64,000 nucleotides of DNA from a virus (taxonomy: Duplodnaviria; Caudoviricetes): IMG/VR virus record IMGVR_UViG_3300025120_010521; one strand, given 5' to 3'. Both the position numbers and the translations under genes were made by a program. Below, piece after piece: positions 23,736-40,490 of this stretch. A model generated the notes under the pieces. It worked only from the letters and a program-made list of their open reading frames with translations. It was not told the origin of the DNA and made no database searches. The stretch's first letter is position 1. Every line of letters starts with the position of its first letter.

Positions 23736-24107
23736 TTAAGCTTCGCTAACTCGCTGATTCCACTTTTGTGTTAAGTTGCTTACCCAGTTTGTTTTAACTG
23801 CTTGTACACAGGCACCATATGTACATCCTGCTTTTTTGTATTTTTTGTACAATTTTTCTGCTTCTAGTATAATGCTTTGTTTTTCTAAATGTTTAGCATA
23901 TTGATCTTTAGACTTTTGATCTCTACGTCCGGCCAATTCTCTATAAAAGTTTTCATGTGCTGTCATGCTTCTAATTGTTTGCATATCAACAAATATAAAC
24001 TTACGTCTATCTCTTTTTATTGCATTTGTGATTTTTCGGCTTGGTCGTCCAGTCGTTCCACCATTGGAAGTTTTTTTTACTCCAGAACCTGAATTGCCTT
24101 TTGCCAT
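23736..24107 (-). CDS. Basic hypothetical protein
   Basis: K/R-rich; ATAAATA 6 nt upstream. Confidence 0.65.
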   Translation of the reverse strand: MAKGNSGSGVKKTSNGGTTGRPSRKITNAIKRDRRKFIFVDMQTIRSMTAHENFYRELAGRRDQKSKDQYAKHLEKQSIILEAEKLYKKYKKAGCTYGACVQAVKTNWVSNLTQKWNQRVSEA

Positions 24108-24132
24108 ATAATATATTTATGATATGTGTTAA

Positions 24133-24363
24133 TTAATCACCTATTGTGAAAGGTTTTTCGTCAAATCTTTCTAAATCTTGTTCTTTAGTTTGACGATCTC
24201 GCAATTCTTGTGTAAGAAATGCTAGTTGACGTTGCATCTGTTTGTGTGCTTCTGTATATCCACCACGTCTACCAACTTGATTAATTTTATTTTGAATTGA
24301 GTTAATCAACTTCATTAGTTGATCGTTATCTAAATCTGGTTGTTCAAAAACATTTTTAGGCAC
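24133..24363 (-). CDS. Hypothetical helical protein
   Basis: Probable GTG start at 24363 with GGGGAG SD 7 nt upstream, inside the iscA end. Confidence 0.55.
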   Translation of the reverse strand: MPKNVFEQPDLDNDQLMKLINSIQNKINQVGRRGGYTEAHKQMQRQLAFLTQELRDRQTKEQDLERFDEKPFTIGD

Positions 24364-24676
24364 CAAAACTCTCCCCACATCCGCATGATGATGTTGCATT
24401 TGGATTTACAACATTTAAATATGATCCACCTAATTCTTCAACATAGTCAATTGTACAACCAAGTATGTACATTTCAGCAACTTTATCTATTAATAATGCT
24501 TTGCCTTCATTTAGTTCAAATTTAATTGTATCTTCAGCTTCTTCATCTGCGAAGTTCCATTCATACTTAAAACCTGCACATCCACCGCCTTTAACAGAAA
24601 AACGCACATATGGTTTATCTTTGCTTAATGCTGTGTTAGTTAAATATGATTTTGCTGTATCTGTTATGTTAATCAT
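24356..24676 (-). CDS. iscA: A-type Fe-S carrier (IscA/SufA/ErpA, HesB family)
   Basis: GGGCAGFKY, IDY, NPNATSSCGCGESF. Confidence 0.93.
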   Translation of the reverse strand: MINITDTAKSYLTNTALSKDKPYVRFSVKGGGCAGFKYEWNFADEEAEDTIKFELNEGKALLIDKVAEMYILGCTIDYVEELGGSYLNVVNPNATSSCGCGESFGA

Positions 24677-25199
24677 TTGTAGTATTTATCTGTTTTTGCG
24701 ATCTAAGTCGTCTACGTTTTTTAGCTTGTTTTGATGTGCTTAACAGCCTATCATAGTTATCAAGTTGTCTTTGGTTTTCATTAAACCATGTTACATATTC
24801 AATTGCTCTTGTTTTTGCCGCTGGATTGTAAATTATATTTGTATAATAAGGATGATAAAGACTATCATTTTCATCTTGCATATATTTGATATAAATTTCA
24901 CCATCAATAACTGTAAAGTGTTTATCTTTTTTTATATAATAATCATTACCGCTTGGATAGTTGCGAACCTTAATGTGGTTTGGTGGTATTCTATCAATCC
25001 AATGCATTCGTGGAAACCAAGAACGTTTACCGTTCCAAGATACACACTCTGGTCTATCTTGTGTTACTTCCCATGCCATTACATAACAAGGATCGTTATC
25101 AATTTTACCTTGAGCTACAACTAGCTCGTCACCAAAGTTATTCTTGCGACCTGATCGCCACACAGTTTTTTCAATAGTGTAATTTTCAGGTCGCGACAT
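24669..25199 (-). CDS. Hypothetical protein
   Basis: 176 aa ORF, GGA SD. Confidence 0.6.
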   Translation of the reverse strand: MSRPENYTIEKTVWRSGRKNNFGDELVVAQGKIDNDPCYVMAWEVTQDRPECVSWNGKRSWFPRMHWIDRIPPNHIKVRNYPSGNDYYIKKDKHFTVIDGEIYIKYMQDENDSLYHPYYTNIIYNPAAKTRAIEYVTWFNENQRQLDNYDRLLSTSKQAKKRRRLRSQKQINTTND

Positions 25200-25208
25200 T
25201 TTGAATCC

Positions 25209-25400
25209 TTAGGCACTCGCAGTTTCGGTAGTTTTTGCTTCTTGTATTTCTTTTCTTCTTACTTTTGCAAGTTTTGTGATTTCAGATAAGGCTTTTCTAG
25301 CTCTTGTGCCTGCCGCCTTATTACCTTTTTCAGAAAACTTATCATTGTTGTCTTTGTATTCTTCAAACAATGTTAATAATTGTTGACTTGTAGTACTCAT
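25209..25400 (-). CDS. Histone H1-like Hc1-family small basic protein
   Basis: KGNKAAGTRARKALSEITKLAKVRRKEIQ; AAGGAG SD. Confidence 0.8.
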   Translation of the reverse strand: MSTTSQQLLTLFEEYKDNNDKFSEKGNKAAGTRARKALSEITKLAKVRRKEIQEAKTTETASA

Positions 25401-25423
25401 AATTATTTCTCCTTAACTTTGTT

Positions 25424-25452
25424 ATTTTAATATATTTTCTTGTCAAAGTCAA
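25424..25452 (-). promoter_or_regulatory. Sigma70-like promoter of the Hc1-like gene
   Basis: TTGACT-N17-TAAAAT. Confidence 0.55.
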
Positions 25453-25483
25453 TTAAATTCACTAAACCCCAATCAAGGTGGCC

Positions 25484-25671
25484 AAAAGTGAGCAAAAAAT
25501 TTGTCCCACTCAATTAGGGTTCCGTTATTATATTTCTACCAGATGGTAACGTATATACAACGCGATATAATTCATCCTCATTCAAGAGATCTTACCCCTC
25601 AAGATTCATGGTTTATACCAAACCCAAAAAACCAACGATAGCTTGAACCTCAAGTTTCTATGGTTTCTCAC
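25484..25671 (-). ncRNA. Candidate structured small RNA (~188 nt) directly downstream of hfq
   Basis: No credible ORF; ATAAATA at 25678-25684 with +1 geometry; several hairpins; terminal hairpin 25488-25509 plus U4. Confidence 0.5.
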
Positions 25672-25705
25672 TATATGTATTTATATATTAAAACTACTGA
25701 TAATA

Positions 25706-25912
25706 TTATAATGTAATTGGATCAATTGGCATTATTGTTGAAATTGCATTTTTATATACTAATTGAGTATGTTGCTCACGTTGTAGATACAATGTGCTCT
25801 CATCCATTGCCGTTATGACGCCACTCAATTTAATACCGTTAATTAAAAAAACAGTAACTTGAGATTTTGCATCTAATAATTTTTTTATAAATTTGTCTTC
25901 TTGTTCATGCAT
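25706..25912 (-). CDS. hfq: RNA chaperone Hfq homolog (divergent)
   Basis: Sm1 VFLINGIKLSGVI and Sm2 QLVYKNAISTIMP. Confidence 0.9.
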   Translation of the reverse strand: MHEQEDKFIKKLLDAKSQVTVFLINGIKLSGVITAMDESTLYLQREQHTQLVYKNAISTIMPIDPITL

Positions 25913-25945
25913 GATAATTAATAACCTTCATAAGTATTTATCCAG

Positions 25946-26158
25946 TTATTTATTATCTTTAGAGTTTTTAACCAATTTCATCATCATTAGGTATTGTTGA
26001 TACGATTCTTCGACTGCTGGGTATCTCCTACGCATATATTGTTCATGTTTTGCTCGTTGATCTAGTTTAAACTGTTTACGTTTTAATGTATACAGATCTT
26101 GTTCGAGTTGTTTTATTTTATGCGTTTGTAAGTACTCGTCAGGAGCCATTTGTGTCAA
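25946..26158 (-). CDS. Hypothetical coiled-coil protein
   Basis: ORF overlapping the pepA end. Confidence 0.6.
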   Translation of the reverse strand: MTQMAPDEYLQTHKIKQLEQDLYTLKRKQFKLDQRAKHEQYMRRRYPAVEESYQQYLMMMKLVKNSKDNK

Positions 26159-27635
26159 TCCACTTATTCAACAATTTAATACCCCATCCTGTAGCACCAC
26201 CACTTGCTGTCATTGACCCTTTATCATTCCAAGTAACTCCTGCTATATCAATGTGTGTCCAAGGAACATCATTTACAAACCTCTGTAAAAATTGTGCCGC
26301 TGTTGTTGAACTTGCTTCGCCGCCTTTACCAACATTATGCATGTCAGCAATTGTTGAATCAACGTATTTGTCGTATCTTTCTCCAATTGGATCGCATGGT
26401 AAACGCCATACTTTTTCATCTACTTTATGTCCTGCATCAATAAGTTGATTGCTTAAATCATCATTGTTTGAAAATATGCCAGCAAGTTGATCACCAAGTG
26501 CAATTGAAATTGCTCCGGTTAATGTTGCTAGATTAATCATTGTTTTTGGCTTATATGTTTTTTGTGTGTACCATAAACAGTCTGCTAGAACTACTCTACC
26601 CTCAGCATCTGTATTATCAATTTCAATAGTTTGCCCACTCATTGAGTTGATTACATCTCCAGGCTTATATGCATTACTAGACACCATATTTTCTACTAGC
26701 CCAATAACACCAACTGCGTTAATAGGTAGGTTACGTTTTGCAATACTGATCATTGTACCAACAACCACTGCTGAACCACCCATATCATATTTCATGTCTT
26801 TCAAGCCTCTAGATGGTTTAATTGAATATCCACCAGTATCAAATGTAACTCCTTTACCAACAAAGGCCCTAGGTGCATCACCTTTTTTGCCTTTCATCCA
26901 TTCCATTACAACCATTTTAGATTCTCTAGCACTACCTTGGCCAACTGCCAATAGTGCTTCAGCACCCATTTCTTTTAGTTCTTTTTCACCATATACTTTT
27001 ACTTTGAGTCCTAGTGCTTCTAATCCTTTAACACGTTCAGCATAAGATTCAGGATACAGTACATTTGAAGGCTCTGAAATTAAATCTTTTGCAAATGCTG
27101 TGCCTTCAATTACTGCGTCTTTGTGTGCATACTCTTCTTTTACTTTTTTTAAGTCAGCACCTTCTTGACATATATCAACTTCAAATAATGTTTCTTCTTT
27201 GTCTTTTTTAGTAAAGTATTTGTCAAACTTATATTCTTTTAACTGCATACCAAAAGCAACATTAGTAGATGATGGTAGTACTTCTTTGTCAACAAATGCA
27301 AGTACACGACCTTGTGTGCCACGTTCTTTTAATTTACTATAAATTGCTCCACCTACTTTTTCTAATTTAGCATCATCTAATTTAACAGGATCTCCTACAC
27401 TAACAAACAATGCATCATGGCAAGGCAAGTTGTTAGATGTAATAAAAAAACTATCTAAAAATTTACCTTTAAAATTATTGTGTGTAATTGTTTCGCTTAA
27501 TAATCCATCAGTGCCTTCATCTAGTATTGATGATGAATGAGATAATTGTACTGCATCGTCTTTTGTATAAAGTAAATGTACTTCGCAAGTACTTTCGCCA
27601 CTTGATTCTATATCGTTAATAAAATCTATTTTCAT
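26139..27635 (-). CDS. pepA: Leucyl aminopeptidase (M17)
   Basis: VGKGVTFDTGG, MKYDMGG, NTDAEGR, HIDIAG; LATLTG shows a D-to-N change at the usual DLATLTG. Confidence 0.93.
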   Translation of the reverse strand: MKIDFINDIESSGESTCEVHLLYTKDDAVQLSHSSSILDEGTDGLLSETITHNNFKGKFLDSFFITSNNLPCHDALFVSVGDPVKLDDAKLEKVGGAIYSKLKERGTQGRVLAFVDKEVLPSSTNVAFGMQLKEYKFDKYFTKKDKEETLFEVDICQEGADLKKVKEEYAHKDAVIEGTAFAKDLISEPSNVLYPESYAERVKGLEALGLKVKVYGEKELKEMGAEALLAVGQGSARESKMVVMEWMKGKKGDAPRAFVGKGVTFDTGGYSIKPSRGLKDMKYDMGGSAVVVGTMISIAKRNLPINAVGVIGLVENMVSSNAYKPGDVINSMSGQTIEIDNTDAEGRVVLADCLWYTQKTYKPKTMINLATLTGAISIALGDQLAGIFSNNDDLSNQLIDAGHKVDEKVWRLPCDPIGERYDKYVDSTIADMHNVGKGGEASSTTAAQFLQRFVNDVPWTHIDIAGVTWNDKGSMTASGGATGWGIKLLNKWIDTNGS

Positions 27636-27859
27636 TTGACCTCCATGTCTTTAGTAAGAACTAAAGGTTTTTCTGAAAACATTTCTGAATATACTTTTAG
27701 ATCTTCTTGTTCTTTTTGTTCTCGCTGATCAAATATTTCTATTTGAATTGCTTGTTTAATATCATATGCAAGTTGTGGCCATTTGACTACAAAGTTATGA
27801 ACAAACTCATCTCGTTGTTTTTGATTCATTCTTGCAATTTGTTCTACTACATCAGTCAT
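27632..27859 (-). CDS. Hypothetical protein
   Basis: ATGA-coupled ORF. Confidence 0.6.
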   Translation of the reverse strand: MTDVVEQIARMNQKQRDEFVHNFVVKWPQLAYDIKQAIQIEIFDQREQKEQEDLKVYSEMFSEKPLVLTKDMEVK

Positions 27860-28191
27860 GCAACATTTTCTTCCTTAGGCATTTCATACATTGGAAATTC
27901 TGCCTTACCACGTTTAGGTTCGTGCATACCTACTGCCCAACCATTTTCTAATTCAACCCAGTACTTTACGGTCTTTTCTGGACCAGGCCATCCATAATTA
28001 CCAGCATTACGATCTTTAATTTTTACGTCGCTAAACTGTCTGGCAGGAATATCTTTTTTCTTATATTTTGCCATCTTCCACCACCATTGAAAATCTAAAC
28101 CAAGTGTAGTTTCATTTTCAAGTTCTTTTGATATTCCATATTGTTCTGATGCATACAGTCCTAATGGATCGTTTTTGTCTATTTTAGGCAT
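27856..28191 (-). CDS. Hypothetical protein
   Basis: ATGA-coupled ORF. Confidence 0.6.
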   Translation of the reverse strand: MPKIDKNDPLGLYASEQYGISKELENETTLGLDFQWWWKMAKYKKKDIPARQFSDVKIKDRNAGNYGWPGPEKTVKYWVELENGWAVGMHEPKRGKAEFPMYEMPKEENVA

Positions 28192-40396: not shown

Positions 40397-40472
40397 TGGT
40401 GCCGGCAGAGAGATTCGAACTCCCGACCTGACGATTACAAATCGCCTGCTCTACCAACTGAGCTACGCCGGC
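40397..40472 (-). tRNA. tRNA-Thr(TGT)
   Basis: GCCGGCG acceptor, GGCGA-TTTGTAA-TCGTC, CCA encoded. Confidence 0.95.
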
Positions 40473-40490
40473 ACATTGCATTTATTTATA

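What the first reader, a model, noticed from the sequence alone, without database searches (positions are those of the whole stretch)
25706..25912. Phage Hfq that keeps the distal face but has lost proximal-face and rim residues
Seen, by manual alignment to E. coli Hfq: distal A-rich-binding residues are kept (Y25 to F, G29, I30, K31). Proximal U-tail residues are changed (Q8 to E, F39 to M, F42 to S, H57 to N), and the rim arginine patch is lost (R16 to L, R17 to D, R19 to K). Known: the proximal face and rim are needed for sRNA binding and annealing. Inference: it could poison host Hfq hexamers (dominant negative, silencing host sRNA control) or act as an A-rich mRNA binder for AT-rich phage transcripts. 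It is under a TAAATA late-type element (25935-25941).
Basis: partly seen in the sequence, partly recalled or inferred. Interest (0 to 1): 0.75.

Follow-up and report, generated by a model that had tools for sequence, protein, structure and literature searches.

The report
Giant phage Hfq without sRNA-binding surfaces
A giant T4-like ocean phage carries its own copy of the bacterial RNA chaperone Hfq that has kept only one of its three working surfaces, so it cannot act as a normal small-RNA matchmaker; it probably either holds A-rich RNA or plugs the phage neck, as host Hfq does in T4.

Summary

It is one member of a phage family from ~290-330-kb marine T4-like jumbo phages. The family is of alphaproteobacterial ancestry and under purifying selection (dN/dS ~0.09). 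Conservation is reversed relative to textbook Hfq:
- The distal face is nearly frozen (pN/pS 0.04).
- The former uridine pocket (0.34) and N-terminal rim (0.31) drift; positions 39 and 42 are hypervariable.
- Core charge falls from +4 to -1 per subunit.

The gene has a late-promoter element. It always lies in a cassette of hfq, late promoter, structured RNA and hc1.

Canonical sRNA-mRNA matchmaking is therefore very unlikely. My best reading (0.4) is a distal-face RNA holder for A-rich phage transcripts. The strong rival (0.28) comes from a 2026 T4 study in which host Hfq docks on neck protein gp14 through K31/Q33 as a second genome gate. This phage may supply its own.

Some chromosomal alphaproteobacterial Hfqs share part of the pocket loss, so the substitutions are not phage-only. 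This scan has noted similar phage Hfq variants on other DNA before.

The parts
25706..25912 (-). hfq: 68-aa core-only Hfq with no C-terminal tail
   Evidence: Pfam PF17209, 72.7 bits. AF2 Sm fold, pLDDT 92.8. Best PDB match is Caulobacter Hfq 6GWK. Family of about 42 clusters.
25935..25941 (-). ATAAATA late-promoter-like element 29 nt upstream of the hfq start
   Evidence: Motif is 19:2 strand-biased, with 10 of 19 hits in intergenic DNA. GATAAATA is conserved upstream of hfq in both sub-lineages.
25678..25685 (-). TATAAATA (T4 late-promoter consensus) directly after the hfq stop codon
   Evidence: Only 4 coding-strand copies in the window, all intergenic, against 12 expected on both strands. 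Conserved in all relatives. RNA-library contigs end at 25672 and 25659 (weak hint only).
25453..25672 (-). Structured non-coding RNA of about 215 nt, probably the late leader of hc1 mRNA; always follows phage hfq
   Evidence: No Rfam match. Two covarying hairpins. 35 of 36 metagenome hits of the 3' hairpin lie 120-192 nt behind a phage hfq. Single copy per genome.
25642..25654 (-). 5' hairpin with an invariant GGU triloop
   Evidence: A GGT loop flanked by at least 3 complementary pairs was found in all 37 distinct RNAs, with the stem sequence differing between sub-lineages; two of them (L191, L197) fit only doubtfully.
25455..25530 (-). 3' long hairpin with invariant AACGGARCCC ... GGGUUUAGUGA
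   Evidence: RNAalifold finds 19 pairs, 8 with compensatory changes. 97% of cells paired against 85% in shuffles; covariation 0.415 against 0.19, 0 of 500 shuffles as high. CM hit of 82.5 bits.
25424..25452 (-). Sigma-70-like promoter TTGACT-17-TAAAAT in front of hc1
   Evidence: 10 of 12 consensus matches. Conserved across relatives.
25209..25400 (-). hc1: histone H1-like protein, constant downstream partner of hfq
   Evidence: Pfam PF07432, E=1e-18. Synteny in all family loci. The distant L092 lineage has an ORF with Hc1-like sequence motifs in the same place, read by eye.

Best explanation
This is a true Hfq ring protein that an ancestor of this marine T4-like jumbo-phage lineage captured from an alphaproteobacterium. 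It has since been stripped to the Sm core. It is probably made late in infection.

Its uridine/3'-end pocket (proximal face) and its N-terminal arginine patch (rim) no longer exist and are free to drift. It therefore cannot load U-tailed small RNAs or catalyse sRNA-mRNA annealing.

What selection maintains is the distal face, which is the A-R-N purine-binding surface, plus one distal-rim arginine (R45). I infer that the ring works as a distal-face-only RNA holder. It would bind A-rich single-stranded stretches of AT-rich phage late transcripts. One candidate is the purine-rich ribosome-binding region of the adjacent hc1 gene, with which it forms a conserved cassette. Binding would modulate translation or stability rather than match RNAs.

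Shown: the identity, ancestry, selection pattern, charge loss, late-type promoter and cassette. Inferred: RNA binding through the distal face and the choice of targets.
For: - Hfq identity and fold.
- Purifying selection on the whole gene: median dN/dS 0.09 over 132 pairs.
- Class-wise pN/pS: distal 0.043, ex-proximal 0.34, N-terminal rim 0.31, rest 0.19.
- The distal R-site and A-site equivalents F22, L23, N25, G26, I/V27, K28, L29, Q50 and T59 are invariant or nearly so in 41 family sequences. Position 42 is S/N/T/E/A/P and position 39 is S/M/N/V/T/Y/A/K.
- Published roles of the surfaces: the proximal pocket (Q8, Q41, F42, K56, H57) binds U-rich 3' ends, and the rim arginines set the annealing rate (PMC10628458). 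The distal face binds A-R-N, and Caulobacter Hfq binds A18 at 2 nM or better (PMC6561178).
- Chromosomal hfq-hflX genes of uncultured Alphaproteobacteria show similar pocket loss and low charge. An Hfq with a degenerate proximal pocket therefore also exists as a chromosomal gene in cells, where no phage-neck role applies.
- The cassette of hfq, late promoter, structured RNA and hc1 is conserved even in the 52%-identical sister lineage.
Against: - No binding has been tested.
- Core net charge is -1 per subunit, against +4 in the nearest cellular Hfqs. This is odd for an RNA binder.
- A-site residue Q33 is S here and I in the sister lineage.
- Many 'distal' residues also belong to the Sm fold signature and are invariant in all alphaproteobacterial Hfqs. 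Their conservation is not specific proof of RNA binding.
- The linked RNA has no excess of A-R-N runs: the longest is 2-3, no more than in shuffles.
- The complete relative encodes no PolyA_pol-family enzyme.
- T4 shows that Hfq's K31/Q33 surface can serve a protein-docking role instead.
Confidence: 0.4

Rival explanations
1. Self-supplied neck plug. In T4, the host Hfq hexamer docks transiently under the gp14 stopper hexamer. It stabilises the gp13/gp14 neck and acts as a second genome gate until the tail attaches. This T4-like jumbo phage may encode its own late-expressed Hfq for that job. If so, only the ring shape and the docking (distal) face need to be kept, and RNA-binding surfaces and positive charge can be lost or even selected against.
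For: - PMC12929587: gp14 contacts Hfq K31, Q33, T49, S65 and R19. K31 and Q33 are distal-face residues by established knowledge. The Hfq-binding surface of gp14 is conserved among T4-like phages, and an hfq-minus host gives about 2-fold lower yield.
- Here K31 is invariant as K28 and the distal face is the constrained face.
- A late-type promoter lies upstream.
- The phage is T4-like. In the complete 328-kb relative G001 I found a T4-type portal at 7.9e-110, a gp13 homologue at 2.6e-35 and a gp55-like late sigma factor.
- Loss of the RNA pockets and of net positive charge is what this role predicts.
- No Hfq family exists in PHROGs, and no reference T4-like phage carries one. The gene is therefore a lineage-specific gain.
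Against: - No gp14 homologue is recognisable by sequence in the complete relative (PF11649, T4 gp14 itself, phrog_460).
- The 611-aa protein beside gp13 resembles myophage stoppers only weakly (Foldseek E 0.03-0.2 on a model of mean pLDDT 62).
- Of the five T4 contact residues only K31 is retained.
- T4 docking is said to rely on a positively charged Hfq surface, whereas this protein is net acidic.
- The gene sits among replication and auxiliary genes, not with neck genes.
- Similar pocket-less Hfqs occur in chromosomal hfq-hflX operons.
Confidence: 0.28
2. Anti-host Hfq. The phage subunit co-assembles with host Hfq into crippled mixed hexamers, or competes as a decoy for A-rich mRNA sites. 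Either would disable host sRNA control that could target phage transcripts.
For: - The strands that form the subunit interface (QLVYK-AISTIMP) are almost identical to alphaproteobacterial Hfq.
- Alphaproteobacterial ancestry of both Hfq and the neighbouring PepA fits an alphaproteobacterial host that has an Hfq.
- Phages are known to compete for host Hfq with their own sRNAs (PMC12197685).
Against: - A late-type promoter is the wrong timing for host takeover.
- Preformed Hfq hexamers are stable and abundant (my own knowledge), so late-made subunits would mostly form homohexamers.
- The host and its Hfq are unidentified.
- A poison subunit needs only the interface, yet the distal surface is the most constrained part.
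Confidence: 0.1
3. An ordinary working Hfq chaperone. The substitutions are tolerated lineage noise, and the protein still binds sRNAs and anneals RNAs for the phage.
For: - Strong Pfam score and intact fold.
- Y55 and K56 are kept, and one family member has H at position 57.
- Gram-positive Hfqs also lack rim arginines (PMC10628458).
Against: - Three of the four residues that build the uridine pocket are replaced. The stacking aromatic position is hypervariable, which means there is no constraint on it.
- Q8 is kept in 110 of 110 named alphaproteobacterial Hfqs but is E in 39 of 41 phage sequences.
- Positions 16/17 are hydrophobic/acidic, and net charge is reversed.
- The literature holds the proximal pore to be the most conserved Hfq function (PMC6561178).
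Confidence: 0.05

Closest known systems
Caulobacter crescentus Hfq (PDB 6GWK) and other alphaproteobacterial Hfqs
   Same: Best solved match (E=6.8e-15). All 80 nearest genome-encoded relatives that were kept carry alphaproteobacterial or unresolved MAG labels apart from three odd ones (Micavibrio, [Ruminococcus] gnavus, Exiguobacterium MAGs), at 48-62% identity. They share the FL(V/I)NG(V/I)KL, RR(D/E) and QLVYK-AISTIMP signatures, F at position 25 and the distal-rim arginine.
   Different: The phage protein has no C-terminal acidic tail. It lacks Q8, F39, F42, H57 and the R16/K17 basic patch. Its core charge is -1 instead of +4. It is not in an hfq-hflX operon.
E. coli Hfq as hijacked by phage T4 in the gp13/gp14/Hfq neck complex (Han et al., Nat Commun 2026, PMC12929587)
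   Same: A T4-type phage uses an Hfq hexamer. The surface used, which includes K31 and Q33, is the surface conserved here. That role needs no RNA binding.
   Different: In T4 the Hfq is the host's and fully RNA-competent. Here the phage encodes it. Only K31 of the five contact residues is kept, and no gp14 homologue could be recognised by sequence.
Chromosomal Hfq of uncultured (mostly gut) Alphaproteobacteria (loci L110-L127, L177)
   Same: Parallel loss of the pocket: F42->E/S/T/N, F39->Q/H, K56->T/S or H57->N, R17->D/N. Low core charge of -1 to +1.
   Different: All keep Q8. L120 and L111, the two loci whose neighbours I scanned, sit in hfq-hflX operons of cellular genomes. They form a separate branch in the tree.
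Gram-positive Hfqs (S. aureus, B. subtilis) with arginine-poor rims
   Same: An arginine-poor rim predicts weak or no annealing activity (PMC10628458; PMC6561178).
   Different: They retain the proximal pocket (Q8, F/Y42, K56, H57). The phage protein does not.
Cyanobacterial Hfq (Synechocystis, Anabaena), recalled from memory and not tested here
   Same: Hfq homologues with poorly conserved RNA-binding sites, reported to work through a protein partner.
   Different: A different lineage and a different set of changes. This is a lead only; I did not retrieve or align those sequences.

Membership tests
Hfq (Pfam PF17209 / bacterial Sm-like) | Profile match above the curated cut-off | tested here: met
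   72.7 bits against a 27-bit cut-off, residues 6-66.
Hfq (Pfam PF17209 / bacterial Sm-like) | Sm fold: N-terminal helix followed by five bent strands | tested here: met
   AF2 model, pLDDT 92.8: H3-15, E18-23, E28-36, E40-44, E49-53, E57-62.
Hfq (Pfam PF17209 / bacterial Sm-like) | Proximal uridine/3'-end pocket: Q8, Q41, F/Y42, K56, H57 | tested here: not met
   E5, E38, S39, K54, N55: only K56 is kept. Position 42 is hypervariable in the family.
Hfq (Pfam PF17209 / bacterial Sm-like) | Basic rim patch (R16, R17, R19) that drives annealing | tested here: not met
   L13, D14, K16 here. The family has I/L/V, then D/E/N, then K/N/Q. The distal-rim R45 (Caulobacter R50) is kept.
Hfq (Pfam PF17209 / bacterial Sm-like) | Distal A-R-N site residues (Y/F25, L26, N28, G29, I/V30, K31, L32, Q33, Q52, T61) | tested here: met
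   All kept and invariant or nearly so, except Q33->S. pN/pS is 0.043.
Hfq (Pfam PF17209 / bacterial Sm-like) | Homohexameric ring | not tested
   The interface strands are conserved, but no oligomer model or experiment was made.
Hfq (Pfam PF17209 / bacterial Sm-like) | RNA binding and sRNA-mRNA annealing activity | not testable with these tools
   Needs EMSA or anisotropy and beacon assays.
T4-type Hfq neck gate (gp13/gp14/Hfq) | T4-type portal and gp13 adaptor present | tested here: met
   In the complete relative G001: Portal_T4 at 7.9e-110 and phrog_211 (gp13) at 2.6e-35.
T4-type Hfq neck gate (gp13/gp14/Hfq) | gp14 stopper with the conserved acidic Hfq-binding surface | tested here: inconclusive
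   No hit with PF11649, T4 gp14 or phrog_460. The 611-aa neighbour of gp13 is only weakly stopper-like.
T4-type Hfq neck gate (gp13/gp14/Hfq) | Hfq contact residues K31, Q33, T49, S65, R19 | tested here: inconclusive
   K31 is invariant. Q33->S, R19->K/N/Q, S65->I, and the T49 loop is changed. The partner has diverged as well, so no verdict is possible.
T4-type Hfq neck gate (gp13/gp14/Hfq) | Physical complex of the Hfq ring with neck proteins | not testable with these tools
   Needs co-purification or cryo-EM.

The most novel reading that the evidence does not exclude
This lineage of T4-like jumbo phages has turned a captured bacterial RNA chaperone into a virion-assembly part. It would be a self-encoded Hfq ring that has discarded RNA binding and serves as the second genome gate under the neck stopper. 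T4's newly discovered hijack of host Hfq would then be a function that is heritable in phage genomes.
Probability: 0.27. Interest if true: 0.85.

Novelty: new variant of a known kind. Interest (0 to 1): 0.62.

Why it matters
Hfq is the central small-RNA chaperone of many bacteria, and its uridine-binding proximal pore is regarded as its most conserved feature. Here a virus keeps Hfq under strong selection while letting exactly that pore and the annealing rim decay.

This is a natural separation-of-function allele. It shows that the ring plus the distal face has a selectable use of its own.

It also offers a direct test of two open questions. The first is what distal-face-only Hfqs do; they also occur in some bacterial chromosomes. 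The second is whether the T4 'Hfq neck gate' reported in 2026 is general enough for phages to encode their own gate.

My full-text searches found no paper describing a phage-encoded Hfq. PHROGs has no family that matches these proteins.

Tried and rejected
- Complex prediction of three copies of the stopper candidate (residues 1-240) with three copies of phage Hfq, both from the complete relative G001: no verdict. It is not used as evidence either way.
- Sequence searches for gp14 in G001 with PF11649, T4 gp14 and phrog_460 found no credible homologue. A profile of the 611-aa protein's N-terminus found no solved relative by sequence. Its model was poor (pLDDT 62), and Foldseek gave only weak stopper and neck hits.
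- Rfam scan of 24000-28000 at E<=1: nothing.
- Megablast of 20 kb of the window against reference phages: no match. tblastn of the Hfq against 50,697 phage records gave only seven distant matches (31-41% identity). Two are Salmonella genome records, and none is a known T4-like phage.
- Hfq 'sponge' idea for the linked RNA: no enrichment of A-R-N runs.
- Metatranscriptome contigs: only Logan contigs were available. Near-identical contigs did not cover the hfq body; only one contig from a relative (12 differences) reached its 5' end. That gap is not evidence of anything. DNA carry-over cannot be excluded for the parts that were covered.
- No whole genome is held for the window, so the host could not be identified. 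I could not check whether Pelagibacter or any other candidate host has an Hfq; a literature search was uninformative.
- A poly(A) polymerase partner was sought in G001 and none was found.

Full report
**What is there.** The minus-strand ORF at 25706-25912 encodes 68 residues.
- It matches Pfam Hfq (PF17209) at E=1.9e-20, 72.7 bits against a cut-off of 27, over residues 6-66.
- An AlphaFold2 model built on 21 family sequences has mean pLDDT 92.8. It shows one N-terminal helix and five strands, which is the Sm fold.
- The best solved relative is Caulobacter crescentus Hfq (6GWK, E=6.8e-15), ahead of the gammaproteobacterial Hfqs.
- The window has 32% G+C with nearly all genes on one strand.
- It carries phage proteins such as a tail-fibre/baseplate-like protein and an ATP-dependent DNA ligase. 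It also carries four tRNAs and many cell-like genes: ClpA-like, DegP-like, IscS, IscA, PepA and GMP reductase.
- Relatives of the contig reach 286-328 kb. One relative in IMG/VR is a complete 328,149-bp genome with terminal repeats, a T4-type portal, a gp13 homologue and a gp55-like late sigma factor.
- This is therefore an uncultured marine T4-like jumbo phage, as earlier notes of this scan also say.

**Check of the observation.** I took the Salmonella Hfq from a tool-supplied record (L009:280-588) and read the alignment with E. coli numbering; that the two cores are the same is my own knowledge. I aligned it with the phage protein and 140 others.
- F25 and K19 are simply the alphaproteobacterial norm.
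- The alphaproteobacterial distal-rim arginine (Caulobacter R50; PMC6561178) survives as invariant R45.
- The upstream ATAAATA at 25935-25941 is real. The heptamer occurs 19 times on the coding strand against twice on the other. Ten of the 19 lie in the 5.8% of intergenic DNA, mostly 12-40 nt before a start codon. GATAAATA is conserved upstream of hfq in both sub-lineages.

**The family.**
- A search of 5.8 billion proteins found about 42 clusters (at 90% identity) of 68-residue relatives at 66-99% identity. All come from marine metagenomes, on hundreds of contigs.
- In a library clustered at 50% identity the whole family collapses into one representative. Everything else is 62% identical or less.
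- The 80 nearest genome-encoded relatives that were kept carry alphaproteobacterial or unresolved MAG labels, apart from three odd ones.
- In a maximum-likelihood tree the jumbo-phage family joins a second phage lineage (L092/L093, 52-55% identical). Support is 87/91, on a long stem inside an unresolved group of non-rhizobial Alphaproteobacteria.
- L092 has a mini-DnaE and a GroES/gp31-like gene downstream of hfq, as the window's family does, so it is a distant cousin of the same phages.
- PHROGs has no family matching any of these proteins. The reference phage collection holds no credible counterpart.

**Selection pattern: the key result.**
- Across 31 distinct coding sequences the median dN/dS is 0.09, so the gene is maintained.
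- The constraint is distributed in reverse to textbook Hfq. Summed pN/pS is 0.043 for the ten distal-face positions, 0.34 for the seven former proximal-pocket positions, 0.31 for the three N-terminal rim positions and 0.19 for the rest.
- Position 42, the aromatic that stacks on uridine, is S/N/T/E/A/P. Position 39 is S/M/N/V/T/Y/A/K.
- Position 8 is E in 39 of 41 sequences. Position 57 is N in 40 of 41.
- Positions 16/17 are I/L/V followed by D/E/N.
- In the 100 most similar single-domain Hfqs of the 50%-clustered library, which are mostly of the cellular type, Q8 is 85%, F39 84%, F42 69%, H57 93% and R16 75%. In 110 distinct sequences from named, mostly alphaproteobacterial genomes they are 100%, 95%, 81%, 99% and 87%.
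- Net charge of the core is -1 per subunit in the phage family (range -3 to +1). It is +4 in the nearest cellular Hfqs and +3 in Salmonella.
- The literature states that the proximal pore is the most conserved Hfq function and the distal face the variable one (PMC6561178). It also states that rim arginines set the annealing rate (PMC10628458).
- This protein therefore cannot plausibly act as a canonical sRNA-mRNA matchmaker.

**Not unique to phages.**
- Among the nearest cellular relatives, two clades of uncultured, mostly gut-derived Alphaproteobacteria also lack the pocket. They show F42->E/S/T/N, F39->Q/H, K56->T/S or H57->N, and R17->D/N. Their core charge is low, -1 to +1.
- The two I checked lie directly upstream of hflX, beside gltX or rmuC/murG, one of them on a 547-kb contig. 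They are ordinary chromosomal hfq genes.
- All keep Q8, and none has the full phage combination.
An Hfq with a degenerate proximal pocket is a recurring natural form, not a phage invention. Because it occurs in cells, it has some use that does not involve a phage neck.

**Surroundings.**
- In every family locus the order is PepA, one or two small ORFs, hfq, a 277-320-nt gap, hc1 (histone H1-like, PF07432), a 172-180-aa ORF and IscA.
- The gap opens with TATAAATA, the T4 late-promoter consensus, at 25678-25685. That octamer is under-represented in the window (5 copies against 12 expected), and all four coding-strand copies are intergenic.
- Next comes a sequence-variable region with a hairpin carrying an invariant GGU triloop. 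A GGT loop flanked by at least three complementary pairs was found in all 37 distinct RNAs, with different stem sequences in different sub-lineages; two of them fit only doubtfully.
- Then comes a 68-nt hairpin with invariant ends. It has 19 pairs, 8 of them with compensatory changes. 97% of cells are paired against 85% in shuffles. The covariation score is 0.415 against 0.19, matched by 0 of 500 shuffles, and slid controls reach at most 0.14.
- A sigma-70-like promoter (TTGACT-17-TAAAAT) and the hc1 ribosome-binding site follow.
- The 3' hairpin is single-copy in the window and in the complete relative.
- 35 of 36 exact-pattern hits in JGI metagenomes lie 120-192 nt behind a phage hfq.
- The distant L092 lineage keeps a shorter version between hfq and an ORF with Hc1-like sequence motifs, which I read by eye and did not scan.
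- No Rfam family matches.
- In RNA libraries, one 303-nt contig identical to the window runs from inside this RNA across the hairpin and promoter into hc1. A contig from another study ends 6 nt downstream of the TATAAATA box. This is a weak hint that the RNA is the late leader of hc1 mRNA, as an earlier follow-up of this scan concluded.
- The RNA holds no excess of A-R-N runs, so nothing supports it as a distal-face sponge.
- The deep conservation of the hfq-RNA-hc1 triad suggests a functional link, but that link is untested.

**How it most likely works.** Two uses of a ring that retains only its distal face are credible.

*(i) RNA holder (0.40).*
- The distal R-site and most of the A-site are intact.
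- Caulobacter Hfq binds A18 at 2 nM or better through this face.
- Phage transcripts are AT-rich.
- The same stripped form exists in cellular chromosomes.
- I therefore rank this first: a late-made ring that binds A-rich single-stranded RNA and affects translation or stability, without matchmaking.
- The weak points are the net acidic charge, the Q33S change and the absence of any identified target.

*(ii) Neck gate (0.28).*
- A 2026 study shows that T4 recruits the host Hfq hexamer under the gp14 stopper. The contacts are Hfq K31, Q33, T49, S65 and R19.
- Hfq there stabilises the gp13/gp14 neck and acts as a transient second genome gate. The gp14 surface involved is conserved among T4-like phages (PMC12929587).
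- K31 and Q33 are distal-face residues by established knowledge.
- A T4-like phage that makes its own late Hfq, keeps just that face and sheds its RNA-binding features is what this role predicts.
- Against it: I could not recognise a gp14 homologue by sequence in the complete relative. The 611-aa protein next to gp13 is only weakly stopper-like. Four of the five contact residues differ.

*(iv) Ordinary chaperone (0.05).* The hypervariable pocket contradicts it.

**Novelty and context.**
- Full-text searches found papers on phage sRNAs that exploit host Hfq. They found none describing a phage-encoded Hfq.
- This scan has already noted phage Hfq variants with similar losses on other DNA, among them a marine podophage and another huge T4-related phage. 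I have not checked those notes. One of them gave me the lead to the T4 paper.
- I rate this a new variant of a known kind. It is a real, well-supported separation-of-function Hfq whose actual job is open, with two sharply testable alternatives.

Noticed in passing
window 25453-25685 (-): A late-promoter-driven structured RNA of about 215 nt lies between hfq and hc1. It has a GGU-triloop hairpin and a 68-nt covarying hairpin, has no Rfam match, and always sits behind phage hfq. An RNA-library contig bridges it into hc1, so it is probably the late hc1 leader.
   Followed up: partly
L092:4208-4555: In the distant sister phage lineage (Hfq 52-55% identical), hfq is again followed by a TAAATA box, a shorter structured stretch with an ACCCC...GGGGU stem, and an ORF with Hc1-like sequence motifs (read by eye). 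The hfq-RNA-hc1 triad therefore seems older than the split of the two lineages.
   Followed up: partly
L110-L127, L177 (genome-contig loci); neighbours checked in L111 and L120: Chromosomal Hfqs of uncultured, mostly gut Alphaproteobacteria have lost F42 and F39, plus K56 or H57. Their core charge is near zero. The two loci checked are hfq-hflX operons. This looks like a cellular class of Hfq without a proximal pocket that seems not to have been described.
   Followed up: partly
P0061-P0070: Proteins of 139-190 aa with two Hfq-like stretches in tandem (duplicated Hfq) head the list of representatives. Their origin was not examined.
   Followed up: no
window 40483-40490 (-): A TATAAATA late-promoter box sits about 10 nt upstream of tRNA-Thr (40397-40472). 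At least one phage tRNA may therefore be transcribed late.
   Followed up: no
G001:C1:213341-215176 (L231:298-2133, -): A 611-aa virion protein lies divergently beside the gp13 homologue. Its N-terminal ~170 residues are 55-65% identical across more than 7,800 phage proteins of 340-612 aa. It matches no Pfam family and is only weakly like myophage stopper proteins. It is a candidate gp14 equivalent of a very large phage group.
   Followed up: partly
L223:2814-2902: This is the one metagenome hit of the hairpin pattern without an hfq upstream. It has a longer insert and a weak CM score (22 bits). It may be a diverged copy or chance.
   Followed up: no
window 25946-26158 (-): A conserved 67-70-aa ORF rich in K, Q and E sits immediately upstream of hfq in the close relatives; the more distant sub-lineage has an 80-aa ORF there. 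It matches no family and its function is unknown.
   Followed up: no
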